A stretch of 64,000 nucleotides of DNA. It comes from an uncultured Chloroflexia bacterium (GTDB lineage: Bacteria; Chloroflexota; Limnocylindria; Limnocylindrales; CSP1-4). Within the stretch, counting starts at the first letter, position 1; each line of letters starts with the position of its first letter. The position numbers and the translations under genes are program-made. Below are positions 453 through 62,991 of this stretch, piece after piece. The notes under the pieces are model-generated. The model made no database searches and was not told where the DNA came from. It worked only from the letters and a program-made list of their open reading frames with translations. The DNA lies in NCBI GenBank assembly GCA_963711105.1, contig CAVQCV010000005.1, forward strand, positions 833,092-897,091. The letters run 5' to 3'.

Positions 453-2090
453 TCAGCCGTAGAAGTCGATCGTCAGGCGGACACGCCCGCTGCTGACCCA
501 GACGCCGATGCCGGCACGATGGAAGTAGGGGTTCATGACGTTGAGGTAGTGGCCGAACTCGCACTGGCCGCTCTTACAGCGGTACTCGTTCTGGAAGAAG
601 ATCTCCGAGTCGATCATTCCGGACGATGTCGCGGACGGCGGCCGGGTGATGTTCTCGCCCCACGAGCCGCCCGGGTAGCCGGCCGAGGCCATTCGGCTGT
701 GCGGCGTCCCGACGAGGTAATGGGTCAGGACGTTGCGGTCGGCCATCAGCTTCGAGTACGGCCGGGCGACCTTGTTGGAGATACCGGCGTCAAGGCGGAT
801 CGGGTCCTGGGCCGGCAGGACATGGTGCGTGACTGAACTGCAGGTACCGCCGCGCGTCACCCAGCCGCCGGTCCGGGTGCAGTTGATCAGGCCCAGCATG
901 TACACCTCGGCGGCGTGCCACGGCGCCGATGTGGACGCCACATTGTTGTTCCAGGGAGTGATGTACCGGACCGTCGCCTTCACGACCTTGAAGGTGCCGG
1001 TGACGGTCTTGCCGATGCGCTGGCCGCCCTTGGAGCGGGCCGTCGAAGCGACCTTCATGGTGACGGTGCTGCCCACGGCGAACTTGGAGCTCGGATCGAG
1101 CACCAGGACTGTGTCGTTCTCGGCCCAGCCGACGGAGCCGCGAACGCGCTTGCCGTTGACGTAGACGCCGAAGGCTGCCGCGGTCGAGGCTCGATCCATC
1201 GGGGTGCTGAAGCGGACGCTGATGACCTGGTTGGGGTCGGCGGTGGTGTGGCCGTCGAGAGGCCGGAAGCGGGTGACCTGGGGCGCTTCCATGGTCGTGA
1301 TGGACAACGGCTCGACCGGCAGCAGGGCCACGCCCGAGGCGTCGGTGGCGTTGTTGGAGTCGAAGCTGATGGTGTAGGTGGTGCCGCCGTCAAGGCCGTC
1401 CTGCGGGGTGAAGGTGAAGACCTGGGAGGACACGTCGGTCGGGTCGTCGCCGGTGATGGTGCCGGTCACGGGCGGGCTGAAGGACAGCCGGGCCTGGACG
1501 GTGGCGAGCTTGACCGGCCGGGTGAAGGTCAGAACGAAGCCCGAAGAGGGCGAGACCTGGCCCGATACGGTCAGGCTGGCGGTGATCTTGCCCGAAGTCA
1601 GCTCGCCTGTGGCAAAGCGGGTCGAGACGGACTCGTCGATGACCATGCCCGATTGATCCATGGCCGTCTGGGCGATGCCGAGCGAATAGTCCGTGAAGGG
1701 CTCCCAGTACGTGGCGGGGGTGATCGAGAGGGTCTCGGCGGTGGAGTCCCAGACCAGCCGCACGCTCGTGGCCGGGCTGATGGACAGGGCGTCTGCCACG
1801 CTGCCCTGGTTCATGGGCTTGTTGAAGCGAAGAACGAGCGGCGCGTCGACGGCGAGTTTATCGGCGACGGGATCGGGGGCGACGGTGGGAGCGGCAGGGT
1901 CGTACGGGCGAGGGGCCCGAGCGTCGATCTCCTTGGTCGGCAGGCCGAGCAGCAGCCCGGTCACGACCAGGGCGACAGCCGCCGCGGTCACGGCGAGCTG
2001 GGTGATCTTCGAGCGGCGGCCCACAAAGCGGCCGCCCAGCTCGAGGCCGGCGATCAGAACCGCGAGGACTGCGGCAGCGAACTGTCGCAT
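453..2090 (-). CDS. Secreted or membrane-anchored protein with tandem bacterial Ig-like (SbsA/Big_5-type) repeats and a C-terminal CAP/SCP-like domain (tentative)
   Basis: 545-aa ORF. The N-terminal hydrophobic anchor is AVLAVLIAGLELGG...VALVVTGLLLGL. Repeated S/T-rich beta-rich segments follow (LVLRFNKPM, ISFDSNNATDASG, VISVRFSTPMDRAS), typical of SbsA-Ig-like domains. The C-terminal region contains GHYLNVMNPYFHRAGIGVWV, which resembles the CAP motif GHYTQVVW. Confidence 0.6.
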   Translation of the reverse strand: MRQFAAAVLAVLIAGLELGGRFVGRRSKITQLAVTAAAVALVVTGLLLGLPTKEIDARAPRPYDPAAPTVAPDPVADKLAVDAPLVLRFNKPMNQGSVADALSISPATSVRLVWDSTAETLSITPATYWEPFTDYSLGIAQTAMDQSGMVIDESVSTRFATGELTSGKITASLTVSGQVSPSSGFVLTFTRPVKLATVQARLSFSPPVTGTITGDDPTDVSSQVFTFTPQDGLDGGTTYTISFDSNNATDASGVALLPVEPLSITTMEAPQVTRFRPLDGHTTADPNQVISVRFSTPMDRASTAAAFGVYVNGKRVRGSVGWAENDTVLVLDPSSKFAVGSTVTMKVASTARSKGGQRIGKTVTGTFKVVKATVRYITPWNNNVASTSAPWHAAEVYMLGLINCTRTGGWVTRGGTCSSVTHHVLPAQDPIRLDAGISNKVARPYSKLMADRNVLTHYLVGTPHSRMASAGYPGGSWGENITRPPSATSSGMIDSEIFFQNEYRCKSGQCEFGHYLNVMNPYFHRAGIGVWVSSGRVRLTIDFYG

Positions 2091-3716: not shown

Positions 3717-5342
3717 TCACCCCACCGCCGCGACGCCCGGCCTCGACTGGCCCGGCGTGCGAAACCTGGCCGCCTCGTCCAGGTGGCCGCAATCCACGGC
3801 CTCCGAACCGGCAAGATCGGCGATGGTCCGGGCCACCCGCAGCAGGCGCTCGATTCCCCGAGCCGACCAGCCTTCGAGGTCTGCGAGTCGGACGGCGCGG
3901 CCCTGGGCCGCGTTCGAGAGCCCGCAAGCCGATCGCAGCGCCCTCCCGGCCAGCCGGGCGTTGAGGCAACCGCGACTCTCCTGCTGGACCGCGCGGGCGG
4001 CGGCGACCCGAGCCGCTACCTCGGCGGTGCCCTCAGGCGCGGCCCGGCCCACGTACTCCTCCGGGCGGACCCGCGGCATGTGAACCCACAGGTCGATCCT
4101 GTCGCGAAGCGGGCCCGACACTCGCCCGGCGTAGCGATCCACTACGGCCTGCTGACATCTGCACCGGCCGTCGCCCTCGCCCGCGTGGCCGCACGGGCAC
4201 GGGTTCATGGCCGCGACCAGCTGAAACCGCGCCGGGAACACCTCGGCCCGACCGACTCTCGCTATCGCGACCTGACCGTCCTCGAGCGGCTGGCGCAGCG
4301 CTTCCAGGGTCGCCCGATCGAATTCCGGCAGCTCGTCCAGGAAGAGGACGCCGTCATTCGCGCGCGTGACCTCGCCCGGTGAGACTTGGGGCCCGCCTCC
4401 GACCATGGCCGCGTACGAGATCGTGTGATGAGGCGCCCGAAACGGCCGCCCCGTGACCAGGCCCCTGACCGGCGTCGCCGAGCAGACCGAAGCGATAATC
4501 GTGGCGACGTGGGCCTCCTGGTCGTTCAGAGGCGGCAGCAGCCCGGGAATGGTCCGGGCCAGCAGCGTCTTGCCGCTGCCGGGCGGCCCAATCATCAGCA
4601 GGCCGTGCCCGCCGGCGAGCGCGATTTCCAGGGCCCGGCGCGCCTCCAGCTGGCCACGCACTTCCGATAGGTCCGGGAACAGCGGGAAGCCGCGCACCGA
4701 TCCCGGCGCGGATCCCAGCGCGGAGCCCTCGCCGGACGTGGTTCCGTCCGGGGCCGGGCCACAGGCGCGTGTCTCGTCGAGCGCCACGCCCAGGGCCAGT
4801 TCTACCCTGGGCGGGGCGGAGCGCGACCGGCCCGCCCGCCTTTCGCGGAGCATGCCTGCCGCCTCGGCCAGCGTGGAAGCCGCAACGACCGCGATCCCGG
4901 CCGCCAGAGAAGCTTCGGTTTCGCCGTCCGCCGGCACAACCACCCGGCCGACTCCCCTCCGGCCCAGCGCGGCGACCATGGGCAGCAGTCCCGGCACGGG
5001 CCGCAGCTCGCCGCCCAGTGACAGCTCCCCGAGGACCGCCCATCGCCCTGTTGCCTTCAGCTGCTCCGACCCGACCAGGATCCCGAGCGCGATGGCCAGA
5101 TCGAGAGAAGCGCCGCCCTTGCGCAGGTCCGCCGGGGCCAGGTTCACGGTGATGCGCCGCGGCGGGTAGTCGTAGCCGCTGTTGCGGATCGCACCCCGAA
5201 CTCGCTCGCGGGCCTCCTGGAGGGCTGTATCCGCCAGCCCGACAATCGTGAAGCCGGGCAGGCCTGGGGCGACGTCCACCTCGACCCGGACGATCCGTCC
5301 GTCGAGGCCGTGAAGGGTAGCCGACAGCAATGAAGCGAGCAC
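3717..5342 (-). CDS. comM: YifB/ComM-family Mg-chelatase-like AAA+ ATPase
   Basis: The N-terminal Lon-like domain begins IVRVEVDVAPGLPGFTIVGLADTALQEARERVRGAIRNSGYDYP. A Walker A motif MIGPPGSGKTLLART is present. The signature NPCPCGHAG...RCRC and C-terminal RIDLWVHMPRV also match. Confidence 0.88.
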   Translation of the reverse strand: MLASLLSATLHGLDGRIVRVEVDVAPGLPGFTIVGLADTALQEARERVRGAIRNSGYDYPPRRITVNLAPADLRKGGASLDLAIALGILVGSEQLKATGRWAVLGELSLGGELRPVPGLLPMVAALGRRGVGRVVVPADGETEASLAAGIAVVAASTLAEAAGMLRERRAGRSRSAPPRVELALGVALDETRACGPAPDGTTSGEGSALGSAPGSVRGFPLFPDLSEVRGQLEARRALEIALAGGHGLLMIGPPGSGKTLLARTIPGLLPPLNDQEAHVATIIASVCSATPVRGLVTGRPFRAPHHTISYAAMVGGGPQVSPGEVTRANDGVLFLDELPEFDRATLEALRQPLEDGQVAIARVGRAEVFPARFQLVAAMNPCPCGHAGEGDGRCRCQQAVVDRYAGRVSGPLRDRIDLWVHMPRVRPEEYVGRAAPEGTAEVAARVAAARAVQQESRGCLNARLAGRALRSACGLSNAAQGRAVRLADLEGWSARGIERLLRVARTIADLAGSEAVDCGHLDEAARFRTPGQSRPGVAAVG

Positions 5343-5450
5343 GAGTTGACGCTACGACTGGACGCTTATGCGCCGCTTATCTGGCGATCTACTCGCCCCG
5401 GCGAACCTGGCGGTCCCAGGCACGGCCGCCCCACCGCGACCGGCCGGCCG

Positions 5451-6641
5451 CTACTTCTTGCCGGCTCCGGCCATTTCCTTGTCCATCGCCTTCACGAAGT
5501 CCATGACGTTGCGGCCGAGGGCCGAGTCCGCCTTCGTGTACATGAACGGAGCGCCGCTGTTGAGCGCGCCGATCGCGCCGCGGTATTCGTTCACGATCTG
5601 GTAGTCGATACGGCGCTTCAGAGCGCTCTCGGCGTTCTTGACGTTGATGCCGGTGAACGCGTTCGAGCGATTGAGTATCAGCTTGATCTTGTCGTCCGAG
5701 AAACCGAGATGGCCGATCGTCTCGAGCAGCAGCCGCACGTTCTTCAGACAGGGCAGGTCGGCGGTCATTACCACGAAGACCGTCTCGGCGACGTCCATCA
5801 GCCGCAGATTGACCTCGTCCAGCCGCTTGTCGACGTCCACGATGATGTAGTCGTACTCGTGGGCGAGGTGGGTGATGATCTCGGGCAGGTGGTCCGCGGT
5901 CACCAGTTCGGCCGTCTCCGGCGAAGGCGGGGCAAGCAGCAGATCGATGCCCGACTCGTGCTTGACCACGATCTGGCGGATCAGGTCCAGGTCGAACCCG
6001 GGCGTCCCGATCAGATCGATGATGCTCATCTTGTCCATGCCCAGATCCAGGAAGACCCGGTGGTCGCCGAACTGGAGATTGCCATCGATCAGGCAAACCC
6101 GGCGCCCGAGCTCCTTGTGAAGGGCGATGGCGCTGTTGATGGCGATCGTGGTCGTACCCACGCCACCCTTTGCGCCGTAGAACATGACGACCTTGGACGG
6201 CTCGCGCCGACGGCCGGTCGGGCCCGCAACCGGACGCGCCGCCGGTGGCTGGGCGACGTCCGCGGGCGCATACCGCGACAGCAGGCTGCGCATCCGGGCC
6301 ATCAGTTCGGCGGGATGGAAAGGCTTGATCAGATAGTCGTCTGCGCCCGATCGGAGCGCCTTGCCTCGGTCCGAAGCTTCGTTCTCCGCCAGAAGCAGGA
6401 TGACGGGGGTGTGGGTCGACGGTCCGTCCTCCAGTCGCAGCCGGCTGACGATGGTGAACCCGTCGACGTTCGGAAGGCTGGCCGCGATCAGGACCAGAGC
6501 CGGCCGCTCGGCATGAGCGACACGCAACGCCTCGGCGCCGTCGCCGACGGCGGTGGGCTCATAGCCGGCCTGCGTCAGTGCGTTGCTGAGAGCGCGCTGA
6601 ACTGTTGGGTCGGCATCGACTACTAGGATCCTGACGGCCAT
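5451..6641 (-). CDS. Response-regulator receiver domain fused to a ParA/MinD-type ATPase (CpaE/TadZ-like), paralog 1
   Basis: The N-terminal REC domain reads VRILVVDADPTVQRALSNAL...PVILLLAEN...GADDYLIKPF. It is followed by a deviant Walker A FYGAKGGVGTTTIAINSA and a MinD-like core LIDGNLQFGD, DYIIVDV. Confidence 0.8.
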   Translation of the reverse strand: MAVRILVVDADPTVQRALSNALTQAGYEPTAVGDGAEALRVAHAERPALVLIAASLPNVDGFTIVSRLRLEDGPSTHTPVILLLAENEASDRGKALRSGADDYLIKPFHPAELMARMRSLLSRYAPADVAQPPAARPVAGPTGRRREPSKVVMFYGAKGGVGTTTIAINSAIALHKELGRRVCLIDGNLQFGDHRVFLDLGMDKMSIIDLIGTPGFDLDLIRQIVVKHESGIDLLLAPPSPETAELVTADHLPEIITHLAHEYDYIIVDVDKRLDEVNLRLMDVAETVFVVMTADLPCLKNVRLLLETIGHLGFSDDKIKLILNRSNAFTGINVKNAESALKRRIDYQIVNEYRGAIGALNSGAPFMYTKADSALGRNVMDFVKAMDKEMAGAGKK

Positions 6642-6860
6642 CGGCTCACCTGGCTGTTACGGACGCACCCGCGAAAATACGCCACCCCGGCACGCAGTAC
6701 GTCCAGGGACCGCGCGCCATCACTGCCGGATGGCGGACGCTGTTCAAAGGACGGTTGATTATAGGGGGCAGCCCGGACGATCAGTCCAGCCCCCTAACGA
6801 GCGGGCCCGTTCGAGCCGGGCCCATCTCCCCCGCGTTCGGTGTCGATTCGGGACGGCGAC

Positions 6861-7781
6861 TCAGCGCTTCGGTTCCGAGGCGCCGGCATCCATGCCCTTG
6901 CCGACCATCGAACCGAGAGGGCCCAGGAGCTGCGTGAACTCCAGCGGGATCACGAACTTGGTCGCCGGACCGCTGCCGAGCGCCTTGAGGGCGTCCAGGT
7001 ACTGCAGGGCCATGGTCTTCTGATCGATGTTCTTGGCGGCGCCGAAGATCGTGTTGAGCGCCTCGCTGAAGCCCTGGGCTCGAAGGATTGCGGCCTGCCG
7101 GTCGCCTTCAGCGCGAAGGATGGCCGATTGCTTGTCACCCTCGGCCACGTTGATCGTGGCCTGGCGCGTGCCTTCCGACTCGGTGATGACCGCGCGCCGG
7201 GTTCGCTCTGCCGACAGCTGGCGGTTCATCGCCTCCTGTACCGCGGGCGGGGGCAGGATCTCGCGGATCTCGACGGTCATCACCTTACCGCCCCAGCGTT
7301 CGGTGACCTCGTCGAGCTTGATTCGCAGGGCCTCGTTGATGCGCTCGCGCTGAGACAGGACGTCATCGAGCACGATGTCGCCGATAACCGAACGGAGGGA
7401 CGTCGCGGCCACACCCTGGAGGGCGCCGGCGAAATTGAGGACGTTGACCTGGCTCATAAGCGGGTCAACGATCTTCCAGTAGATCAGGAAGTCGACGCCC
7501 AGCGGCGCGTTGTCCTTGGTGATGGCGGTCTGGCGCGGCACTTCGATGAACTGCTCGCGCAGATCGACGATGGCGCCCCTGTCCGCAACGGGGACGAGGA
7601 CATGGAACCCAGGCCTTCGAACCTTCCCGTTGTCGGTGCGGCCCCACCGATAGACGACCATCATGGCCCACTGGGGGACGATGCGGATGTACGCCGCCCC
7701 GATCGCGAGGACCACCAGTACGAAGATGATTATCCCGATGATGATCGCTGTCGTCGCTCCGTCCATTGCCTGGACCTCCAT
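6861..7781 (-). CDS. SPFH/band-7 (stomatin/prohibitin-like) membrane protein
   Basis: An N-terminal TM is followed by the SPFH core VVYRWGRTDNGKVRRPGFHVLVPVADRGAIVDLREQ...TKDNAPLGVDFLIYWKIVDP. A C-terminal region rich in A/E/R/Q follows. Confidence 0.85.
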   Translation of the reverse strand: MEVQAMDGATTAIIIGIIIFVLVVLAIGAAYIRIVPQWAMMVVYRWGRTDNGKVRRPGFHVLVPVADRGAIVDLREQFIEVPRQTAITKDNAPLGVDFLIYWKIVDPLMSQVNVLNFAGALQGVAATSLRSVIGDIVLDDVLSQRERINEALRIKLDEVTERWGGKVMTVEIREILPPPAVQEAMNRQLSAERTRRAVITESEGTRQATINVAEGDKQSAILRAEGDRQAAILRAQGFSEALNTIFGAAKNIDQKTMALQYLDALKALGSGPATKFVIPLEFTQLLGPLGSMVGKGMDAGASEPKR

Positions 7782-7842
7782 CTGTGGCCGCCGGCTGGCG
7801 GACGTCTCCGGCCCGGGTGGCCGATTGCTGCCTGTGCTCTAG

Positions 7843-8361
7843 CTACTGCTTGCTCAATTCGATCACTCGCACCACCGTGATGATGCCGCCCCAGGCCGCA
7901 ACCTTCTCTTCGAGTTGCTCCCGGATCTTCTCTCCCAGCCAGATCTGCTTTCGGATGACGTCCCCGGACGTCATCTCGGCGACCAGGGATCGCGCCATCT
8001 GCGAGGCAACGTCGACCACGGCGCCCCGGAAGTCAAGGACCCGGACCTGGCTCAGCAGCGGATCGACGATCTTCCAGTGGATCTCCAGGTCCGCCGCCAC
8101 TGCCTCCCGGTCGGACGTCAGGAGGGTCTGCGGACCGATGCGGCCGACCTGCTCACGCAGGTCGACGATGACGCCCCGATCCGCGACCGGCACGACCAAC
8201 CGGAGGCCGGGCATCCGGACTAACTCGGGACCGGTGCGGCCCCAGCGATAGACCACCATGCAGCCCCAGGCCGGAACTCGGCGGACCGCCATCGCGAACC
8301 AGGCCGCGAAGATGATGCCGCCGGCGACGAGGATCAGGAGGATGGCCCCGACCGACTCCAC
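7843..8361 (-). CDS. Short SPFH/band-7 domain protein (172 aa, no C-terminal coiled-coil)
   Basis: An N-terminal TM is followed by VVYRWGRTGPELVRMPGLRLVVPVADRGVIVDLREQ...DLEIHWKIVDP. It is paralogous to 6861..7781 and lies 4 nt downstream of the NfeD-like gene. Confidence 0.8.
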   Translation of the reverse strand: MESVGAILLILVAGGIIFAAWFAMAVRRVPAWGCMVVYRWGRTGPELVRMPGLRLVVPVADRGVIVDLREQVGRIGPQTLLTSDREAVAADLEIHWKIVDPLLSQVRVLDFRGAVVDVASQMARSLVAEMTSGDVIRKQIWLGEKIREQLEEKVAAWGGIITVVRVIELSKQ

Positions 8362-8365
8362 GGTC

Positions 8366-9949
8366 CTACTCCGGCTCGACTATGAGGGTCAGGCCTTCTA
8401 TGGCTATGACCCTGACCCGAGCTCCTCGAGCCGCCGTGCCGCCGTCGGCCACGCGGGCCGACCACGACTCTCGGGACACGTAGACCGTACCGAGGGGCGC
8501 CAGGTCCTTTTCGACCTCGCCGATCATGCCCATCACGTCGGTCGCTCCGACGAGCCCCTGGCCCACGGGGATCGGTTGACGGCGCATCAGCAGGAGCGTC
8601 CTGACGAGGACCAGCCCGTAGCCCGCGGCCGTGCCGGCCATCACCGCGATGACCGGCCAGGCGACTTCGGCCGCCGGCAGATATGGACCCGGCGAGCCGT
8701 AGAAGGCGACTGCGCCGACGACGAAGCTGGCGATGCCACCGATCGTCAGCAACCCATGGCTGGGCACGGCCGGCTCCAGGATCAACATCACGACGCCCAG
8801 GATTACCAGCGCCACCCCCAGGACGTTGAGTGGCAGGCTGCCCGAGCCGTAGAAGGACAGGACCAGGGCCAAGGCCCCGACCAGGCCCATCAGCAAGGTG
8901 GGATGGAAGAACTCGATTGCCACGAGCAGGATGCCGATCACGAGCAGGATGAAGGCGATGTTCGGATCGTCCAGACCGTGCAGGATCGCCTGGATTGGAT
9001 CCTCGCCGATTGTCACGATCGTGGCGCCGCTGGTGTGGACCGTGACCTGCGCGCCGTTGATCGTCACGACCTGGCCGTCGGCCTGGGCCAGGACCTCGTC
9101 CAGGCTGTTGGCGATGCCGTTGATGCCGTGTGCCGCCAGGGCCTCCTGGGCCGTGTAGGACTGCGCGTTCGAGACGGTACTGGCCGCCCAGTCGACCGCC
9201 AGCGGATGACGCTCCTCGGCGATACTCTTGATCGTTGCGACCGCATCGTTGAGGACCTTATCGGCTTCCGTCTGGCCGTACGTGGCGGCGATATCTCCTC
9301 CGCCGGCCGCGACCGGCGACGCTGCGCCGATGTTCGTGCTTTCGGCCATGTAGGCCAGGTTGGCGGAAAGGGTTATGAACGTACCCGCGCTGGCCGCCTT
9401 GGCGCCGGAGGGTCCAACCCAGACGATCGTCGGGATGCTCGCGTGCAGCGAGGTCACGATGTCCATCATCGAGCTCTCGGCGCCACCGAGAGTATCGAGC
9501 TGGATGATCACGGCAGCCGCGCCGTCGTCCTCGGCTCGTCGGACGCCGGCCGCGATGTAGCCCGCCATGACGTCGTCAACGACACCGTTGGTCGGCAGGA
9601 CCACGACCTCCCGCGCGGGCGGCGAACCTGACGCCGGGGAGGGTGCGGCCGTCATCGGCGGCGGCACGATTGCGCTGTCCGGGCCGCCACTTCTGATCTG
9701 ACCCACCCCCACCAGCAAGCCGATTCCCAACGCCAGCGTCGCTGCCACCCGAGATGCGCCCCAGGCCGCTCGCCGGACCTGCCCGGGCGTTCCAACCCAA
9801 CCGGACAACCGGGCCAGGTGGCCGTCGCGCCCTTTGTCGGACTGGACGGTCCAGGGCAGAGAGGTCATCTCGTCGGGGAGCGGCGGCGTCCTGCTGCTTC
9901 GGGCGAAACGGCGCAGCCGCTCGTCGAGTTCGAAGTCCGTCTCGTTCAT
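8366..9949 (-). CDS. Fusion protein: anti-sigma-factor-like N-terminal domain, one TM, NfeD-family (ClpP-class) membrane serine protease domain, multi-TM segment and C-terminal OB-fold
   Basis: The start ATG overlaps the stop of ECF sigma gene 9946..10551 (ATGA), indicating translational coupling. The N-terminus MNETDFELDERLRRFARS resembles that of anti-sigma 60942..62342 (MTDRTDFELDQDLVRRLRS). The NfeD/ClpP-like region includes VVVLPTNGVVDDVMAGYIAAGVRRA...AVIIQLDTLGG...SAGTFI. Four or five TM helices follow, then an NfeD C-terminal beta-domain (GTVYVSRESWSARV). Confidence 0.75.
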   Translation of the reverse strand: MNETDFELDERLRRFARSSRTPPLPDEMTSLPWTVQSDKGRDGHLARLSGWVGTPGQVRRAAWGASRVAATLALGIGLLVGVGQIRSGGPDSAIVPPPMTAAPSPASGSPPAREVVVLPTNGVVDDVMAGYIAAGVRRAEDDGAAAVIIQLDTLGGAESSMMDIVTSLHASIPTIVWVGPSGAKAASAGTFITLSANLAYMAESTNIGAASPVAAGGGDIAATYGQTEADKVLNDAVATIKSIAEERHPLAVDWAASTVSNAQSYTAQEALAAHGINGIANSLDEVLAQADGQVVTINGAQVTVHTSGATIVTIGEDPIQAILHGLDDPNIAFILLVIGILLVAIEFFHPTLLMGLVGALALVLSFYGSGSLPLNVLGVALVILGVVMLILEPAVPSHGLLTIGGIASFVVGAVAFYGSPGPYLPAAEVAWPVIAVMAGTAAGYGLVLVRTLLLMRRQPIPVGQGLVGATDVMGMIGEVEKDLAPLGTVYVSRESWSARVADGGTAARGARVRVIAIEGLTLIVEPE

Positions 9950-10551
9950 GGCAGTGCCCCTTCCGCCGGCCCGATACGCCGGCGCAACGCCTGCAGGGCG
10001 GCATGGTGGCGCGATTTGACCGTGCCGATGGGAATGCGAAGCCGGTCGGCGATCTCGGCCAGGGACAGCTCGCCCCAGTACCGCAGGACCACGACCATTC
10101 GGAGTTCGTTGCTGAGGCTCCCGAGCGCGCGTCCGACGGCGTCGCGGGCCAGCGAGGCCTTGAACGGGTCGCCGCCCTCGAGGTCCACGTCGTCCACGTC
10201 CACGGTGCGGTGGCGCGACCGCTTGTGGAGCCGGGTTCGGCAGACGTTGACGAGTATCTGGTTGAACCAGGAGTGGAACTTCTCCCGTTCTCTCAGTTTC
10301 GCCCAGGCGCGCCAGGCGCGAACCGATGCTTCCTGCACGGCATCCTGAGCCTCGGCGGAGTCGGCCAGCAAATAGCCGGCCAGGCGGTAGGCGCCCGGCA
10401 ATTCGGCCGCCAGAAACTCCGCGAACACCGAGTCCACGGCCGTTTCACGGGCGGCGGCGCCGTGAACGGAGGCCCGTAACATCTCGCGATTCAGATATGC
10501 GTCTTCGACGAACACGCCACTCTCGCTGGGCGGACCGACTCGGCCACTCAT
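9946..10551 (-). CDS. ECF-type RNA polymerase sigma-70 factor
   Basis: Region 2 (AQDAVQEASVRAWRAW...FHSWFNQILVNVCRTRL) and region 4 (LRYWGELSLAEIADRLRIPIGTVKSRHHAAL) are both recognisable. Confidence 0.88.
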   Translation of the reverse strand: MSGRVGPPSESGVFVEDAYLNREMLRASVHGAAARETAVDSVFAEFLAAELPGAYRLAGYLLADSAEAQDAVQEASVRAWRAWAKLREREKFHSWFNQILVNVCRTRLHKRSRHRTVDVDDVDLEGGDPFKASLARDAVGRALGSLSNELRMVVVLRYWGELSLAEIADRLRIPIGTVKSRHHAALQALRRRIGPAEGALP

Positions 10552-11159
10552 CGGTGAGACTCCGGCGCCGGGCTCGAGGTTCGGCCGAGGAGAGCGTCGA
10601 GAACAAGCTGGCTCCAGGTTTCCATTCGATCGTAGACCTCGTTCGCCGAAGCGACGGTCTCGAACGACCCCGCCAGCTTGTGCGTCTCGCGAACCGAGAC
10701 CTGGCGCCCACCGGCGTCCGCGAGGTAGACCACGCCCAGGTGGTGCCGGCCCACCTCCACCTCATCGTCGTTGAGCAAGCCGAGGAATTCGAACTCGGGC
10801 ATGAAGTCGGCCACGATCTCCTCGCGCCACTCGCGCCGAAGGCACGTCTCGACCGTGTCGTCGCCGGGGTTCATGTGGCCGCCGATGCCGATGGTGTAGT
10901 GATCGTGGAGCCGCGCATCGCCACCTGCCCTGGTCCGCCTCATCAAGAAGAGCCGCTCCTCCTGCCGCAGAACCATATACGGGATGATCTGCTTGATCGA
11001 GTCGTCCATTTCGGCCGCCGGTCGCGGATAGAACGAGCCCAGGGCTATCCGGCCGAGAACGGCCCCGGTTGCGCTCGTAAGCACGCCCCGCCAGGCCAGC
11101 CCGTCCATCAGGACGCTGCGCGGCACGGCCCAGACCAACTCCTCCCCCTGCTGGGTCAT
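10548..11159 (-). CDS. NUDIX-family hydrolase (putative)
   Basis: A Nudix-box-like segment GGHMNPGDDTVETCLRREWREEIV is present. The fold context is IIPYMVLRQEERLFLMRRT. The gene overlaps the downstream sigma gene by 4 nt. Confidence 0.55.
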   Translation of the reverse strand: MTQQGEELVWAVPRSVLMDGLAWRGVLTSATGAVLGRIALGSFYPRPAAEMDDSIKQIIPYMVLRQEERLFLMRRTRAGGDARLHDHYTIGIGGHMNPGDDTVETCLRREWREEIVADFMPEFEFLGLLNDDEVEVGRHHLGVVYLADAGGRQVSVRETHKLAGSFETVASANEVYDRMETWSQLVLDALLGRTSSPAPESHR

Positions 11160-12049
11160 CGGCTATCCGGCTCCGCCAGCCGTCCTTTGGCCGATTCGAA
11201 GCGCCGGCGCAGGGCGTCGGCGTCGGGTCCGCCTTTGCGCTCGAGTTCGGCGATCCACTCGTCGATCTCGTCCTGCACGTCGCGCAATCTGTCCGCGATC
11301 GCGGCGGCGTTCGTGGCCGCTATGCCGGCACCCATGGAAGCCTCGCCCCTCGCGAGGCGCGTCATGCTCGCCCAGCCCGTGGCGGCAAGGGCTCTCACGG
11401 CGTCCCAGTCGGCCTTCTCGATCTCATGGGGGCCGCCGGCCACCGCTTCGACTATCGCCGCCGAAACCAGCAGCGGCATGTGGCTGATCGCCGCAACGGC
11501 GCGGTCGTGGGCCGCGGCGGTCATCTGGACCTGGACGGCTCCGCACGCCTCGATCAGCTCTCGAACTCGCTCCGCGTCGCCCAGACGAGCGAATTCCCCT
11601 GGCACGGTGACCCAGGGCCGGCCGGCGAACAAGTCCGGCAGCGCGGCGGCGTAACCGCTCACTTCGCGCCCGGCCATTGGATGGCCGCCGATGAAGGGCA
11701 GCCTGGCCGCGTCGGCCCTGGCTACGATGCGAGCCTTGGCGCTGGCCCCATCGGTCACGGTAGCGTCGTCCGGCAACGCGCCACGCAACGAACCCCCGAT
11801 CTCGTCGATCAGATCCAGGCACGTCATCGGAGGCGCCGTCAGCACGACCAGCTCGCTGTTGCGCAGGGCCGCCTCCAAAGTGGGCGCCGCGACATCTACG
11901 ACGCCGTCCGACACGGCCTGCGCTACGGGGCCCGCACTGCGGCTCCAGGCGGTCACATGCCACTCCCCCGCCTGTCCAGGCACGCGCAGGGCGCGGGCGA
12001 TCGAACCGCCGATCAGCCCGAAACCGACAATCGAAACTCGCACCCGAAC
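11156..12049 (-). CDS. tyrA: Prephenate dehydrogenase (TyrA family); a GTG start around 12049 is likely, and the ORF's upstream extension is probably untranslated
   Basis: The Rossmann motif VSIVGFGLIGGSIARAL is present. The catalytic region reads FIGGHPMAGREVSG...ISHMPLLVSAAIV. The upstream 80 aa of the ORF are low-complexity. Confidence 0.75.
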   Translation of the reverse strand, partial: VRVRVSIVGFGLIGGSIARALRVPGQAGEWHVTAWSRSAGPVAQAVSDGVVDVAAPTLEAALRNSELVVLTAPPMTCLDLIDEIGGSLRGALPDDATVTDGASAKARIVARADAARLPFIGGHPMAGREVSGYAAALPDLFAGRPWVTVPGEFARLGDAERVRELIEACGAVQVQMTAAAHDRAVAAISHMPLLVSAAIVEAVAGGPHEIEKADWDAVRALAATGWASMTRLARGEASMGAGIAATNAAAIADRLRDVQDEIDEWIAELERKGGPDADALRRRFESAKGRLAEPDSR

Positions 12050-12229
12050 ATTATGAGGCGGCGGCCGCGCCTCAGTGCCCGTCCGGGGGGCCCCTCTGGG
12101 GCCTACTGCAATACCCGTACGAATGAGTGCGCGCGGCGGAAGAAGCTGATTAGAATGCTTGTGGTTGCCGGATTCTCCGGCCTGTAGCCTGTTTCGGTGC
12201 TCGCTGCCACGTAGAAGGGTCGCCAAAAG

Positions 12230-12925
12230 ATGCTCGAGTCGTATGGCGAGACCAGACCGATCCGGGTCCTCCTCGTGGACGACCACCAGCTCCTGACAGG
12301 CGCTTTGTCACAGATGCTCGGTCGCGAGGCGGACATCGTGGTGACAGGGGTCGCCGGTAGCGTCGCCGAAGCCAAGGCCATGTGCCGCGAACGCCTGGAC
12401 GTCGTTCTGATGGACTACCGCCTGCCCGACGGCACGGGAGCCGAAGCCACCCGGGCGATCAAGGCACGCTGGCCGGCCGCGCGAGTCGTCATGCTCACCG
12501 CGCTGACGGACGATGAGACCGTCCTGGAATCGATCCAGGCGGGCGCAGACGGTTACCTCACCAAGGACCGCGCCATAGACGAGGTCGTGAACGCCGTCCG
12601 GGCCGCATACGCCGGTGAAACGCTGCTGCCCCGCTCAGTCATCGTCGGCATCGCCCAGCGCGTCGCTGCAGCTCGCGAACGCGGCACGGAACGTCGCCAG
12701 ATCGAACCGCTCACCCCTCGTGAGCTGGAAGTGCTCAAGGCCCTCACCGAAGGCCTGGCCACGCCGGAGATCTGCGAGCGGCTCTACATCGCCCCGAACA
12801 CGCTCCGGACCCACGTCCAGAACATCATGGGCAAGTTGCGAGTGCACTCGAAGCTGGAGGCGGTCGCCTTCGCGCTCCGCAACCGGCTGGTCGAACCGCC
12901 GAAATCGGACGACGGCCTGTTCTAG
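12230..12925 (+). CDS. NarL/LuxR-family two-component response regulator, orphan (no adjacent histidine kinase)
   Basis: The REC domain reads IRVLLVDDHQLLTGAL...DVVLMDYRLPDGTG...VVMLTALTD. A LuxR-type helix-turn-helix LTPRELEVLKALTEGLATPEICERLYIAPNTLRTHVQNIMGKLRV follows. Confidence 0.88.
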   Translation: MLESYGETRPIRVLLVDDHQLLTGALSQMLGREADIVVTGVAGSVAEAKAMCRERLDVVLMDYRLPDGTGAEATRAIKARWPAARVVMLTALTDDETVLESIQAGADGYLTKDRAIDEVVNAVRAAYAGETLLPRSVIVGIAQRVAAARERGTERRQIEPLTPRELEVLKALTEGLATPEICERLYIAPNTLRTHVQNIMGKLRVHSKLEAVAFALRNRLVEPPKSDDGLF

Positions 12926-13042
12926 AGGAGACCCTCGCACGGCAATTCTCGCGACCGGCGCGCTGTCGCGGCCGTAGACCCCGGCGTCACCTCCAGGACA
13001 TGTCCCCATGGGCGGTTTACCTGGTGAGCGCGGCGGCCTCTG

Positions 13043-60941: not shown

Positions 60942-62342
60942 CTACTCCCCGGCCCCGTACTGACTATCGAAGAGGACTCCCCGCGGCATCAGGACGATCC
61001 CAAAGCCGCCATATGAGGCGCCGCCCGGGGCTCCCGCGGTCCATTCGATCGGCGTCCACACGGTGGCGTCGTATGAGATCCAGGCTTTGGCGCCGCCGTT
61101 CTTCACCGCAAGGAAGTACGTGCCGTTCGAGACGATCACGCCGTCGCCGTCATAGGTGGACGGGACCGTACCGAGAGGCGGGTACGCCTGTTCGATGGTC
61201 CAGGTGAGGCCGCCGTCGGTCGAGCGAGCCAGGCTGTCGACCGAGAGGATCACTATCGCGTCCCGCCCAAACTCGAGATAGTCCGCGGTGCCGGCGAAGT
61301 TGGAGTCGCTGTGCGTCCAGTTCCGGCCGTCATCCGAGAACCACAGCTGGCTGGTTACGGCCCTCGTTCCCGTCATTCCGCTGGGGATCGGCTCAGGGTA
61401 GGCGCTTCCGACCAGATAGAGGCGTCCGGCGTTCGCCTGGACGTGCGTTCTCGGAACATCGTCGGGCCCCAGGCAGGCGAGACCGGGCTCCATCGTCTCC
61501 TCGCCCCAGTGGACGCCGTCGGTCGAATACTCGACGTGGTAGCCGCAGCCGGTCGGCGAGCCCACGGTGAACGTGGTCGCGACAATCGCCGAGTCGGTAC
61601 CTGCGACCGAGACGATAGATCCGCTCAGATCGGCCACGCCGGCGTTCTGCCAGGTCGACCCGTCCGCGGTCGTCCAGGTCGACGCCGAACCGCCCGCGTC
61701 AACGGCAATGGCTATCAAGCCAACCGGCGCCGCGGCCACGTACACCGCGCCGGGCAAACCGGCAACCTTGGTCCAGCCTTCTCCCGTCGGCGAGATCCAG
61801 ACGCTGTCCGCCGGGCTGTACTGGCCGCCCGACACCGTCGAGCTGGTGGCGGCAAAGCCGCCCCTCCAGCTGATCACCTGCCCGACGCCGCCGGGAGCGC
61901 CAACCGAAGAGGCCCCCACGGAGGCCGGGCTCCAGGACAGACTGCTCCAGTTGGCTCCGAGGCCGGGGGTCGTCCAGTCGGGCTTCGGGCTGACGCCCGG
62001 TGTAGGCACGGGCACGGGCGACTGGGTCGGGCTCGGGGTCGGGCTCGAGGTCGGTGACTGAGACGAGGCGGTCTCCGGGTTCGCCGGCAGCCACCGGCCG
62101 GCCAGCGAAACGGCGACGACGATGGCCACGGAGGTGGCCGCCAACGAGCCGATCGTCCGCCAGGGGTGCCCGGCGAAAGGGTTGGCCAGGCCGCCCAGCC
62201 GCCGGCCGAGCCTGCGCCGGCTCGCGACCTCGACGGCGCGACGATAGATGGAGTCGGGCACCGGCACGGCCGGTGGGGCGCTGATCGACCGGAGCCGGCG
62301 CACCAGGTCCTGGTCGAGTTCGAAATCAGTTCGGTCCGTCAT
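60942..62342 (-). CDS. Membrane-anchored anti-sigma factor with extracytoplasmic BNR/Asp-box beta-propeller domain
   Basis: The start overlaps the sigma gene stop (ATGA). The N-terminus MTDRTDFELDQDLVRRLRS is followed by a single TM (IGSLAATSVAIVVAVSLAG) and a P/S/T linker. BNR repeats are STDGVHWG, SDDGRNWT and STDGGLTWT. Confidence 0.75.
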   Translation of the reverse strand: MTDRTDFELDQDLVRRLRSISAPPAVPVPDSIYRRAVEVASRRRLGRRLGGLANPFAGHPWRTIGSLAATSVAIVVAVSLAGRWLPANPETASSQSPTSSPTPSPTQSPVPVPTPGVSPKPDWTTPGLGANWSSLSWSPASVGASSVGAPGGVGQVISWRGGFAATSSTVSGGQYSPADSVWISPTGEGWTKVAGLPGAVYVAAAPVGLIAIAVDAGGSASTWTTADGSTWQNAGVADLSGSIVSVAGTDSAIVATTFTVGSPTGCGYHVEYSTDGVHWGEETMEPGLACLGPDDVPRTHVQANAGRLYLVGSAYPEPIPSGMTGTRAVTSQLWFSDDGRNWTHSDSNFAGTADYLEFGRDAIVILSVDSLARSTDGGLTWTIEQAYPPLGTVPSTYDGDGVIVSNGTYFLAVKNGGAKAWISYDATVWTPIEWTAGAPGGASYGGFGIVLMPRGVLFDSQYGAGE

Positions 62343-62917
62343 CGGGAGACCTCCCGGGTCGTGCTATCCAGCTCCGCTCGGAGCGACCTCATCGCGTAGT
62401 GGAGCCGCGACTTGACCGTGCCAAGCGGCAGGTTCATTCGATCGGCGATGTCTTCGAGCTGCAGGTCTCGCCAGAACCTCAGCGCCACCACCAACTGCTG
62501 GTCGGGCGGCAAGGTCCTGACGAGCCGGCCTACCTCGTCGCGGGCGAGGGCCTCGCGGAATGGGTCGCCGGCAGTGCGAACGGCCCTCGCGGCCCCCTCT
62601 TCGAGCTCCAGCTCGCGAACGCCGCGCCGGTGTCGCAATCGATCTCGACAGACGTTGACGACTATCCGGTCGAACCAGACGTCGAACCGGTCCGGATCGC
62701 GCAGCCTGGGCCAGGCCTGCCAGGCCTTCTCGAGAGCGTCCTGGACGGCGTCCTCGGCCTCCACTGAGTCGCGAAGCAGGTACCCCGCAAGCCGGTAAGC
62801 GTCCGCCACTTCCGAGCGGGTCAGGCGGACGAACTCGTCCGCGCCCCCTATCGCCCCGCCCCTGATGGCTACGTCGCCTGCCTCTCTTTCCTTCAATATC
62901 ACCCTCAGCTCCTCCAA
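62339..62917 (-). CDS. ECF-type RNA polymerase sigma-70 factor (paralog of 9946..10551)
   Basis: Region 2 is AEDAVQDALEKAWQAW...FDVWFDRIVVNVCRDRL. Region 4 is LRFWRDLQLEDIADRMNLPLGTVKSRLHYAM. Confidence 0.88.
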   Translation of the reverse strand: MEELRVILKEREAGDVAIRGGAIGGADEFVRLTRSEVADAYRLAGYLLRDSVEAEDAVQDALEKAWQAWPRLRDPDRFDVWFDRIVVNVCRDRLRHRRGVRELELEEGAARAVRTAGDPFREALARDEVGRLVRTLPPDQQLVVALRFWRDLQLEDIADRMNLPLGTVKSRLHYAMRSLRAELDSTTREVSR

Positions 62918-62991
62918 TCTTGTTCAGGCGACCATTCAAGACGGAGCCCCGAGCCAGAAGGTTCGATCTACACCCTTCAAGTGGCCGTCGC

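What the first reader, a model, noticed from the sequence alone, without database searches (positions are those of the whole stretch)
6861..10551. ECF sigma factor translationally coupled to an anti-sigma::NfeD protease fusion, followed by two SPFH/band-7 genes
NfeD-SPFH operons are classical. Here the NfeD protein carries an extra N-terminal cytoplasmic domain that looks like an anti-sigma factor. Its start overlaps the ECF sigma stop (ATGA at 9946..9949). Its N-terminal ~20 aa (MNETDFELDERLRRF) match the bona fide anti-sigma partner of the paralogous sigma at 60942..62342. A TM segment precedes the ClpP-like NfeD domain. Established biology links NfeD with cleavage of SPFH proteins. This arrangement suggests a signalling module in which regulated proteolysis involving SPFH scaffolds could release the ECF sigma. 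I do not know this architecture as described.
Basis: partly seen in the sequence, partly recalled or inferred. Interest (0 to 1): 0.75.

Follow-up and report, generated by a model that had tools for sequence, protein, structure and literature searches.

The report
ECF sigma with NfeD-fused anti-sigma
A stress-type sigma factor gene is joined to a membrane protease (NfeD) that carries an extra sigma-holding tail, followed by its SPFH scaffold partners, which would link a poorly understood membrane complex directly to gene control; the link is inferred from comparing genomes and has not been shown experimentally.

Summary
The gene cluster is real. On the minus strand it reads NUDIX, ECF sigma (9946..10551), a 527-aa NfeD1b protein (8366..9949) whose ATG overlaps the sigma stop, a short SPFH gene and a full SPFH gene.

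NfeD carries a 65-aa cytoplasmic tail and a TM helix where its relatives have a signal peptide. The tail is translated and under purifying selection (dN/dS 0.19). It matches no known anti-sigma family.

Comparative evidence still supports an anti-sigma role:
- All 56 orthologous loci with enough upstream DNA have the sigma gene directly upstream. In 54 of them it overlaps the NfeD start by 4 or 1 nt.
- None of 11 sister loci without the tail has a sigma gene, although NUDIX-NfeD-SPFH synteny is kept.
- An ECF-type promoter (GAACC-N15-GAGTC) came in with the sigma gene.
- Two other Chloroflexota lineages independently pair unrelated ECF sigmas with N-terminally extended NfeD1b. One extension is a canonical zf-HC2 anti-sigma domain.

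The most likely reading is a self-contained, probably autoregulated ECF module in which NfeD/SPFH is both sensor and output. How sigma is released is not known. I found no description of this architecture in the literature. I rate it a new variant of a known kind, of moderate to high interest.

The parts
10558..10582 (-). ECF-type promoter-like motif GAACC-N15-GAGTC. It ends about 5 nt before the ATG at 10551 and lies inside the 3' end of the NUDIX ORF.
   Evidence: The same motif occurs exactly once, at the same position, in about 52 sigma-carrying loci. The -35 and -10 blocks are invariant and the spacer varies. It is absent from sigma-less loci L146-L162. The paralogous sigma has GAACC-N15-CCGTC. 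Promoter function was not tested.
9946..10551 (-). ECF sigma factor, 201 aa from ATG 10551 or 189 aa from GTG 10515.
   Evidence: Pfam Sigma70_r2 and r4. The best NCBIfam model is TIGR02983 SigE-fam, below its cutoff. The closest solved structure is B. subtilis SigW 5WUQ, E 3e-15. It is 48% identical to the sigma at 62339..62917.
8366..9949 (-). Whole fusion gene (527 aa): tail, TM1, linker, NfeD1b protease, 5-TM domain and OB domain.
9842..9949 (-). Conserved cytoplasmic N-terminal motif (aa 1-36), D.E[ML][DE].RLRRFA..S.RTPPLP.E.AALPWTVQ. This is the putative sigma-binding (anti-sigma) segment.
   Evidence: L24, P25, L31, P32, W33, V35 and Q36 are invariant in 26 sequences. dN/dS is 0.185. 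AF2 predicts a helix at 6-18 and a short helix at 26-29 with low confidence. No Pfam or PDB match.
9692..9757 (-). TM1 (about aa 65-86), which replaces the signal peptide of unfused NfeD1b.
   Evidence: AF2 helix 56-86. dN/dS 0.13. Unfused relatives begin with a short signal peptide or anchor instead.
8975..9610 (-). Extracytoplasmic ClpP-fold NfeD1b protease domain (aa 114-325). The predicted catalytic residues are S187 (9389..9391) and K231 (9257..9259).
   Evidence: PF25145. Match to PH1510 1510-N (2DEO, 3BPP) at E 9e-23, with S187 and K231 aligned to the residues I take to be the catalytic Ser97 and Lys138. That identification rests on my recollection plus counting along the alignment. Both residues are invariant.
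8576..8974 (-). NfeD integral membrane domain with five TM helices (aa 326-458).
   Evidence: PF24961. AF2 helices 329-348, 353-369, 373-391, 400-417 and 426-457.
8366..8575 (-). C-terminal OB-fold partner-binding domain (aa 459-527), predicted to be cytoplasmic.
   Evidence: PF01957. Match to PDB 3WWV, 'stomatin operon partner protein', E 3e-7.
7843..8361 (-). Short SPFH paralogue (172 aa): TM plus SPFH domain, with no coiled-coil tail.
   Evidence: PF01145. 46% identity to the long SPFH over 147 aa. Found only in the window and L131.
6861..7781 (-). Full-length stomatin-like SPFH protein (306 aa), the conserved NfeD partner.
   Evidence: PF01145 at E 2e-34. 76-89% identical in all orthologous loci and directly downstream of NfeD.
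10548..11159 (-). NUDIX hydrolase gene, the ancestral upstream neighbour of nfeD (context only).
   Evidence: PF00293. It directly precedes nfeD in sigma-less relatives and precedes the sigma gene in the fusion family.
60942..62964 (-). Paralogous module: promoter-like GAACC-N15-CCGTC (62940..62964), ECF sigma (62339..62917), and an overlapping single-pass putative anti-sigma (60942..62342).

Best explanation
This is a self-contained ECF sigma signalling module of the form [ECF-type promoter]-sigma-[cytoplasmic tail + TM]::NfeD1b-SPFH. It arose when a promoter, a sigma gene and the front half of an anti-sigma gene were inserted in frame at the 5' end of an existing nfeD-SPFH operon. The insertion replaced the NfeD signal peptide.

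Shown by the sequences:
- The gene order and the start/stop overlap.
- The joint presence or absence of sigma gene, promoter motif and tail.
- Purifying selection on the tail.
- An intact Ser-Lys protease dyad.
- A topology in which the tail is cytoplasmic, the protease domain extracytoplasmic and the OB domain cytoplasmic.

Inferred:
- The roughly 36-aa conserved tail (an amphipathic helix plus the PLP...LPWTVQ motif) binds the co-translated sigma and holds it inactive at the membrane. This would resemble a short, two-element (class II/CnrY-like) anti-sigma segment.
- The OB domain docks the protein to the SPFH assembly.
- A membrane or envelope signal sensed through the NfeD protease/SPFH complex releases sigma. 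The most likely route is cleavage in the variable Pro/Ala-rich linker after TM1 (by NfeD itself in trans, or by another site-1 protease), followed by intramembrane cleavage of TM1.
- Freed sigma transcribes from GAACC-N15-GAGTC and so makes more sigma, NfeD and SPFH. NfeD/SPFH would then be both the sensor and the main output, forming a homeostatic loop.
For: Co-occurrence. All 56 loci with the extended NfeD and at least 620 nt of upstream DNA have the sigma gene immediately upstream. None of 11 non-extended sister loci (47-55% identity, same NUDIX-NfeD-SPFH synteny) has one.

Coupling. The sigma stop overlaps the NfeD start by 4 nt in 51 of 56 loci and by 1 nt in 3 more.

The tail is real. 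It is full length in more than 120 clusters at 63-77% identity, has an invariant motif, and has dN/dS 0.185 against 0.145 for the protease domain and 0.31-0.39 for the variable linkers.

Topology. Unfused relatives have a plain signal peptide at this position, which puts the protease domain outside the cell and the tail inside.

Promoter. GAACC-N15-GAGTC occurs once per sigma-carrying locus, with a variable spacer, and is absent from sigma-less loci. The paralogous sigma has the same -35 element and spacing.

Independent recurrences:
- P0156 in L163 is an ECF sigma overlapping by 4 nt a zf-HC2 (PF13490, 37 bits against a cutoff of 22.2; HxxxCxxC motif)::NfeD1b gene, followed by SPFH. Its closest NfeD relatives are unfused and have no sigma gene.
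- Thermomicrobiales P0370/P0405/P0407 show an ECF sigma overlapping by 4 nt a 557-aa NfeD1b with a 135-aa helix-Pro-helix-TM extension, followed by SPFH.
- The three sigmas are at most 31% identical to one another.

Protease. The domain is homologous to PH1510, and the dyad residues align and are invariant.

Literature:
- Short class II anti-sigmas bind sigma4 and sigma2 with only two helices (PMC7406223).
- Most putative anti-sigmas match no Pfam anti-sigma model and are recognised by +1 position, a TM helix and a conserved cytoplasmic part (PMC7826278).
- In B. subtilis, the flotillin genes floA and floT are under the ECF sigma W (PMC8581546).
Against: - The tail has no detectable similarity to any known anti-sigma family: no Pfam hit at E<=10, no PDB hit at E<=10, and a profile search of 5.8 billion proteins found only fragments of the same family.
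- Similarity to the partners of the paralogous sigmas is marginal.
- The conserved part is only about 36 aa. AF2 models it with low confidence as one helix plus a short turn.
- No sigma/tail complex could be predicted.
- The co-occurrence within the Limnocylindria family reflects one evolutionary event, not 56.
- The zf-HC2 fusion is a singleton on one 11.8-kb metagenome contig.
- Nothing here bears on the release mechanism or on whether the promoter motif is recognised by this sigma.
Confidence: 0.65

Rival explanations
1. The tail and TM1 are only a membrane anchor, or a relic of a former anti-sigma gene, and no longer bind sigma. The sigma factor sits upstream because nfeD-SPFH is its target operon, and it is controlled in some other way, for example by transcription alone or by an unlinked regulator.
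For: No anti-sigma family hit. Weak similarity to the partners of the paralogous sigmas. Low-confidence AF2 model of the tail. Some ECF groups are known to lack anti-sigma factors (PMC7826278).
Against: A simple anchor would not keep an invariant 36-aa cytoplasmic motif with dN/dS 0.19, because a signal peptide does the anchoring in relatives. The tail and the sigma gene were gained together. The 4-nt overlap is conserved. Independent lineages fuse a canonical zf-HC2 anti-sigma domain at the same position.
Confidence: 0.13
2. The tail is an anti-sigma segment, but release does not involve proteolysis by NfeD. Instead, sigma binding is controlled by conformation or by the assembly state of NfeD with the SPFH oligomer, for example by competition between the SPFH cage and sigma, or by a stoichiometric checkpoint that matches sigma activity to unassembled NfeD.
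For: The tail, the OB partner-binding domain and the SPFH domain are all predicted to lie on the cytoplasmic face (PMC11222466, states that the NfeD cytosolic domain faces the cytoplasm). The protease domain is on the opposite side of the membrane from sigma. The operon output is NfeD and SPFH themselves, which fits a feedback on assembly.
Against: No evidence bears on this either way. The Ser-Lys dyad is strictly conserved, so protease activity matters for something. Most membrane anti-sigmas studied so far are removed by proteolysis (general knowledge: RseA, RsiW, RsiV).
Confidence: 0.2
3. Annotation artefact: the real NfeD start is an internal codon after TM1, and the upstream 65 codons are an untranslated open frame in GC-rich DNA.
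For: High-GC genomes have long spurious open frames. This frame stays open for 692 codons upstream.
Against: The amino-acid motif is conserved and dN/dS is 0.185. The ATG sits at the same place in 54 of 56 loci. Without TM1 the protease domain would have no export signal, whereas relatives have one.
Confidence: 0.01

Closest known systems
B. subtilis sigma W / RsiW and its regulon (yqeZ-floA, yuaF-floT NfeD-flotillin operons)
   Same: An ECF sigma of the envelope-stress type is linked to NfeD-SPFH operons (PMC8581546). SigW is the closest solved relative of the window sigma (5WUQ, E 3e-15). The anti-sigma is a single-pass membrane protein encoded at +1.
   Different: In B. subtilis the anti-sigma RsiW is a separate class I zinc-binding protein, and the NfeD-flotillin operons are distant regulon members. 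Here the anti-sigma-like segment is part of the NfeD polypeptide, and sigma, NfeD and SPFH form one operon.
Class II anti-sigma factors (CnrY of Cupriavidus metallidurans with CnrH)
   Same: A very short cytoplasmic N-terminal segment is followed by one TM. According to PMC7406223, two helices are enough to contact sigma4 and sigma2.
   Different: Sequence similarity to CnrY was not tested. The second element here (PLP...LPWTVQ) is not confidently helical. CnrY has only a small periplasmic part, not a protease plus a 5-TM domain.
PH1510 (STOPP, NfeD1b) / PH1511 stomatin of Pyrococcus horikoshii
   Same: The same three-part NfeD1b body: a ClpP-fold Ser-Lys protease (E 9e-23), a multi-TM domain and a C-terminal OB domain. 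It is also in an operon with a stomatin-type SPFH gene. From my own knowledge, the protease cleaves the C-terminal hydrophobic region of its stomatin partner.
   Different: PH1510 and nearly all of the 150 best NfeD1b representatives (420-490 aa) have only a signal peptide or anchor before the protease domain. They have no cytoplasmic tail and no adjacent sigma gene.
Anti-sigma factors removed by regulated intramembrane proteolysis (E. coli RseA with DegS/RseP; RsiW with PrsW/RasP) and self-cleaving ones (FecR, RsgI)
   Same: The topology is the same: sigma-binding N-terminus inside, one TM, and a sensing domain outside. This makes site-1 then site-2 cleavage the default expectation (my own knowledge of these systems).
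   Different: Here the extracytoplasmic domain is itself a ClpP-fold protease that continues into five more TM helices and a cytoplasmic domain. After a cut in the linker, the sensor would remain membrane-embedded. No cleavage site or site-2 protease was examined.
zf-HC2::NfeD1b (P0156, locus L163) and the Thermomicrobiales extended NfeD1b (P0370 family)
   Same: The architecture is identical: an ECF sigma overlapping by 4 nt an N-terminally extended NfeD1b, followed by SPFH.
   Different: The sigmas (at most 31% identity) and the extensions are unrelated to those of the window. P0156 has a canonical class I zinc-finger anti-sigma domain. These are public sequences annotated only as NfeD or 'membrane-bound serine protease'.

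Membership tests
ECF (group IV) sigma-70 factors | Only the sigma2 and sigma4 domains are present, in a protein of about 170-220 aa. | tested here: met
   Pfam Sigma70_r2 (49-113) and r4/r4_2 (137-190), with no r3 or r1. NCBIfam TIGR02937 sigma70-ECF scores 77.7 bits against a cutoff of 42.9.
ECF (group IV) sigma-70 factors | An autoregulatory promoter with an AAC-containing -35 element and a CGT/GTC-type -10 element upstream of its own gene. | tested here: inconclusive
   A conserved GAACC-N15-GAGTC motif sits at a fixed position in about 52 loci and is absent from sigma-less loci. The motif is present, but recognition by this sigma was not tested.
ECF (group IV) sigma-70 factors | Assignment to a defined ECF group (ECF Hub HMMs). 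| not testable with these tools
   Only NCBIfam was available. The best hit is TIGR02983 SigE-fam at 110.8 bits, below its cutoff of 141.55.
Class I anti-sigma domain (zf-HC2 / RskA / RsdA type ASD) | Sequence match to an ASD family model. | tested here: not met
   No Pfam family at E<=10 for residues 1-115. No PDB sequence at E<=10.
Class I anti-sigma domain (zf-HC2 / RskA / RsdA type ASD) | A four-helix domain of at least 50 aa (three-helix bundle plus helix 4). | tested here: not met
   Only about 36 residues are conserved. AF2 shows helices at 6-18 and 26-29, then disorder up to TM1.
Putative membrane anti-sigma factor (operational definition of PMC7826278) | Encoded at +1 of the ECF gene, has TM helices, and has a conserved cytoplasmic part. 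| tested here: met
   +1 position with a 4-nt overlap. TM1 at 65-86, preceded by a conserved cytoplasmic motif. Criteria quoted.
Putative membrane anti-sigma factor (operational definition of PMC7826278) | Binds and inhibits its cognate sigma. | not testable with these tools
There are too few independent sequence pairs for coevolution analysis.
Class II (CnrY-like) anti-sigma | A short two-helix cytoplasmic peptide before a single TM. | tested here: inconclusive
   Size and position fit. The first helix is predicted, and the second element is only a 4-residue helix at low pLDDT. Similarity to CnrY itself was not tested.
NfeD1b / STOPP membrane protease | A ClpP-fold N-terminal protease domain with a Ser-Lys dyad. 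| tested here: met
   PF25145. 2DEO and 3BPP at E about 1e-22, with S187 and K231 aligned to the PH1510 residues I take to be the catalytic Ser and Lys. Both are invariant in 26 sequences. Activity was not tested.
NfeD1b / STOPP membrane protease | A multi-TM NfeD membrane domain and a C-terminal OB-fold partner-binding domain. | tested here: met
   PF24961 and PF01957. 3WWV at E 3e-7. Five helices plus a beta domain in the AF2 model.
NfeD1b / STOPP membrane protease | An operon with an SPFH gene directly downstream. | tested here: met
   A Band_7 gene lies downstream in the window and in every related locus with sequence available.
SPFH / Band 7 (stomatin-like) | An SPFH domain after an N-terminal TM, with a C-terminal coiled-coil region for oligomerisation. 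| tested here: met
   The long protein (306 aa) has PF01145 at 34-204 plus a C-terminal Ala/Glu/Arg-rich region. The short protein (172 aa) has the SPFH domain only and lacks the tail, so it meets only the first part.

The most novel reading that the evidence does not exclude
NfeD1b/SPFH complexes act as membrane-stress sensors that bacteria have wired to transcription at least three separate times by fusing an anti-sigma segment to NfeD. In this family the ECF sigma would be tethered at, or even enclosed under, the cytoplasmic SPFH assembly by the NfeD tail. It would be released when the NfeD protease/SPFH complex engages its still unknown substrates. That would give the first direct transcriptional read-out of what NfeD-SPFH systems sense. 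A single N-terminal adenylate/guanylate-cyclase::NfeD1b fusion (P0343) hints that the same sensor may also feed other outputs.
Probability: 0.25. Interest if true: 0.8.

Novelty: new variant of a known kind. Interest (0 to 1): 0.65.

Why it matters
SPFH proteins and their NfeD partners are nearly universal in prokaryotes, yet a 2024 study still calls the function of NfeD unknown (PMC11222466).

ECF sigma/anti-sigma pairs are the standard way bacteria turn an envelope signal into transcription. A natural fusion of the two systems, stable across a whole class of Chloroflexota and re-invented in two other lineages, implies that the NfeD/SPFH complex perceives a signal worth reporting to the nucleoid.

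It also offers an experimental handle. The sigma-dependent promoter (GAACC-N15-GAGTC) can serve as a reporter to screen for the conditions, substrates or mutations (S187A, SPFH deletion) that activate NfeD.

For the ECF field it adds an anti-sigma whose sensor domain is a ClpP-fold protease with six TM helices in total. It also adds a short, family-specific sigma-binding segment that current domain models do not detect.

Tried and rejected
- Pfam and NCBIfam scans of the tail returned nothing, even at E<=10.
- A PDB sequence search with the tail returned nothing.
hhalign against the N-termini of 13 partners of paralogous sigmas gave probability 29%.
- A profile search with the tail in the 5.8-billion-protein database found only truncated or frameshifted members of the same family and no other architecture.
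No complex model exists.
- The sigma-70 promoter and intrinsic terminator scan of 5200..13000 found nothing.
- A loose ECF motif search over the whole window was not enriched: 23 matches against 19.6 expected, and 6 against 3.3.
- The GAACC...GTC match at 6852..6875, downstream of the SPFH gene, is not conserved in relatives and was dismissed as chance.
- The 36 nt between ATG 10551 and GTG 10515 showed no consensus RNA structure. Their conservation looks codon-like instead, so I withdrew my interim claim that codon 13 is the true start.
- A look-up of the window protein's own contig returned no record.
Those loci were used only for the N-termini of their partner proteins.

Full report
**What is in the window**

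On the minus strand there is a tight gene series:
- prephenate dehydrogenase (11156..12286)
- a NUDIX hydrolase (10548..11159)
- an ECF sigma factor (9946..10551)
- a 527-aa NfeD1b protein (8366..9949)
- a 172-aa SPFH protein (7843..8361)
- a 306-aa SPFH protein (6861..7781)

Pfam confirms Sigma70_r2 plus r4 in the sigma factor. In the 527-aa protein it finds NfeD1b_N (115-223), NfeD_membrane (330-442) and the NfeD C-terminal domain (472-526). Both SPFH genes carry Band_7. The sigma stop and the NfeD start share ATGA at 9946..9949.

Names given by NCBI to close homologues place the organism in Candidatus Limnocylindrales, Chloroflexota.

**The NfeD body is a standard NfeD1b**

Residues 136-308 match the Pyrococcus PH1510 protease domain (2DEO, 3BPP) at E about 1e-22. 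S187 and K231 align with the residues I take, from my own knowledge plus counting along the alignment, to be the catalytic Ser97 and Lys138. Residues 467-525 match the 'stomatin operon partner protein' OB domain 3WWV. Both putative catalytic residues are invariant in 26 homologues.

An AlphaFold model (mean pLDDT 65) shows the ClpP-like domain, five TM helices and a C-terminal beta domain.

**The extra N-terminus is real**

More than 120 clusters at 63-77% identity are all 526-539 aa long and align from residue 1. Residues 1-36 form a conserved motif, D.E[ML][DE].RLRRFA..S.RTPPLP.E.AALPWTVQ, with L24, P25, L31, P32, W33, V35 and Q36 invariant. A variable stretch of about 30 aa follows, and then a TM helix.

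Across 35 pairs of orthologous genes, dN/dS differs by region:

| Region | dN/dS |
|---|---|
| N-terminal motif (1-36) | 0.185 |
| TM1 | 0.13 |
| Protease domain | 0.145 |
| Two variable linkers | 0.31-0.39 |

An internal start is therefore excluded.

Unfused relatives begin with a short, classical signal peptide or anchor just before the protease domain. This puts the protease domain outside the cell. In the fusion, it puts the tail in the cytoplasm and, after 1+5 TM helices, the OB domain in the cytoplasm too.

**Is the tail an anti-sigma domain? Direct homology tests failed**

- There is no Pfam family even at E<=10 and no PDB sequence at E<=10.
- A profile search of 5.8 billion proteins found only fragments of the same family.
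- At family level that similarity is not significant by HMM (E 2.3) and reaches only 29% probability by hhalign.
- The 60942..62342 protein is itself only a putative anti-sigma with no recognised domain.
- AF2 models the tail alone as a helix at 6-18, a four-residue helix at 26-29, and disorder up to TM1.

**Comparative genomics gives the real support**

A metagenome scan returned 80 related loci.

- All 56 loci that have the extended NfeD and at least 620 nt of upstream DNA carry the sigma gene immediately upstream. The order is NUDIX-sigma-NfeD-SPFH.
- The sigma stop overlaps the NfeD start by 4 nt in 51 loci and by 1 nt in 3 more.
- The next-closest NfeD genes (47-55% identical) lack the tail. 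In all 11 such loci with at least 700 nt upstream there is no sigma gene, even with a sensitive HMM. Where the upstream gene is recognisable, NUDIX is followed directly by NfeD-SPFH.

The sigma gene and the tail were thus gained together, as one insertion into an older NUDIX-nfeD-SPFH arrangement.

**A promoter came with them**

GAACC-N15-GAGTC(A/T) occurs exactly once per sigma-carrying locus, ending about 5 nt before the first ATG of sigma. The two blocks are invariant and the 15-nt spacer varies freely. The motif is absent from the sigma-less loci. The window copy is at 10558..10582.

In the window lineage the motif lies inside the end of the NUDIX ORF. In other lineages it is intergenic, so NUDIX coding constraint does not explain it.

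The paralogous sigma at 62339..62917 (48% identical) has GAACC-N15-CCGTC 23 nt upstream of its start. The AAC-type -35 and GTC-type -10 elements are what ECF promoters look like. Autoregulation is the usual inference, but it is not tested here.

The motif's position would start transcription at or next to ATG 10551, which would make the mRNA leaderless. Alternatively, GTG 10515 is used, since the corresponding ATG is conserved in every relative. The 12 codons in between vary in a codon-like pattern and show no RNA structure. I leave the start open.

**The architecture recurs independently**

At 50% clustering, among 1.84 billion representatives, the Limnocylindria fusion family collapses to one full-length representative. 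Nearly all other top NfeD1b proteins are 420-490 aa with only a signal peptide. There are exceptions.

1. P0156 (573 aa) has a Pfam zf-HC2 anti-sigma domain (37 bits against a cutoff of 22.2, with HxxxCxxC), a TM helix, and then the full NfeD1b body. In its contig an ECF sigma overlaps it by 4 nt and an SPFH gene follows. Its closest NfeD relatives (61-67% identity) are unfused NfeD-Band_7 pairs without a sigma gene. P0156 is a singleton on one contig.
2. A Thermomicrobiales family (P0370, P0405, P0407; 557 aa; 11 sequences from several assemblies) has a 135-aa extension...LVDDLRALGRAAPARPEFLAELEARLL..., followed by a TM helix. It is again preceded by an ECF sigma with a 4-nt overlap and followed by Band_7.

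The three sigmas are at most 31% identical to one another, and the L163 sigma does not match the window sigma significantly. An ECF sigma plus an N-terminal cytoplasmic extension has therefore been joined to NfeD1b at least three times, once with a textbook anti-sigma domain.

The partners of the sigmas closest to the window's (L003-L008 and others) are also overlapping single-pass proteins. They have an acidic helix, a Pro-rich turn and a TM helix at 60-90, with very diverse C-terminal domains.

**Interpretation**

The field's operational criteria for a putative anti-sigma factor are a gene at +1, TM helices and a conserved cytoplasmic part, and most such proteins match no Pfam anti-sigma model (PMC7826278). 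The NfeD fusion qualifies on these criteria.

Its size and layout are closest to the short class II type. In CnrY, two helices alone contact sigma4 and sigma2 (PMC7406223). Membership of that class was not established.

I conclude, with about 0.65-0.7 confidence, that the tail sequesters the co-translated sigma at the membrane. I also conclude that the operon is an autoregulated ECF module whose main output is NfeD and SPFH themselves.

This parallels B. subtilis, where the flotillin genes floA and floT are controlled by the ECF sigma W (PMC8581546). SigW is also the closest solved relative of this sigma.

How sigma is released is unknown. Cleavage in the variable linker after TM1, followed by intramembrane proteolysis, is the default expectation. 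Control by the NfeD-SPFH assembly state is a live alternative, because the tail, the OB domain and the SPFH domain all face the cytoplasm.

**Novelty**

Full-text searches for NfeD with 'anti-sigma', NfeD with ECF, and SPFH with 'anti-sigma factor' and ECF found no description of such a fusion. The 2021 ECF reclassification does not mention it in its main text, and its supplements were not available.

All the parts are known kinds, and ECF anti-sigmas are known to carry very diverse sensor domains. I therefore rate this a new variant of a known kind. Its value lies in giving the enigmatic NfeD/SPFH system (PMC11222466) a genetic read-out.

Noticed in passing
window 7843..8361 (-); L131 about 1500..2084: There is an extra, truncated SPFH paralogue (TM plus SPFH domain, no coiled-coil tail) between nfeD and the full SPFH gene. 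It occurs only in this window and in one of about 60 related loci, and the two copies are only about 41% identical. A cap-less SPFH subunit might alter cage assembly.
   Followed up: partly
window 60942..62964 (-) and 62992..63945 (-): This is a second ECF module: promoter-like GAACC-N15-CCGTC, a sigma gene (TTG start) and an overlapping 466-aa single-pass partner. The partner's extracytoplasmic domain weakly resembles an F510_1955-family glycosylhydrolase (E 2e-6). It is 26% identical (E 1e-5) to the adjacent 317-aa ORF 62992..63945, and both end in ...GAGE.
   Followed up: partly
window 10513..10551 (-) and the equivalent region in about 50 loci: The first 12 codons of sigma (MSDP.GPP.ERGMF) are conserved in a codon-like pattern, even in loci where codon 1 is not a canonical start (ACG, TTC, GTA). 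The promoter position predicts a leaderless transcript. Start-codon usage in this family is unresolved.
   Followed up: partly
P0343 / locus L167 581..2638: This is a 685-aa protein with an N-terminal adenylate/guanylate cyclase domain (PF00211, 29.7 bits), then a TM helix and a full NfeD1b body. It would be another cytoplasmic signalling domain fused at the same position as the anti-sigma tails. It is a single sequence on a 2.8-kb contig, so a gene-call or assembly artefact is not excluded.
   Followed up: partly
window 10548..12286 (-); L001, L002, L147-L159: A 200-aa NUDIX hydrolase gene is the conserved upstream neighbour of nfeD-SPFH in both sigma-containing and sigma-less lineages. In the window it overlaps the prephenate dehydrogenase gene by 4 nt. 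The reason for a NUDIX-NfeD-SPFH association is unknown.
   Followed up: no
window 5451..6641 (-); L001 8803..10026: A response-regulator receiver fused to a ParA/CpaE-like ATPase (AAA_31) is conserved downstream of the SPFH gene in the window and in distant orthologous loci. The GAACC...GTC match in front of it (6852..6875) is not conserved.
   Followed up: partly
P0132 (127 aa), P0126 and P0129 (75 aa): Database 'proteins' that join sigma region 4 to the NfeD tail, or that stop after the tail, look like frameshifted gene calls in metagenome contigs. They do not look like genuine split or fused genes.
   Followed up: partly
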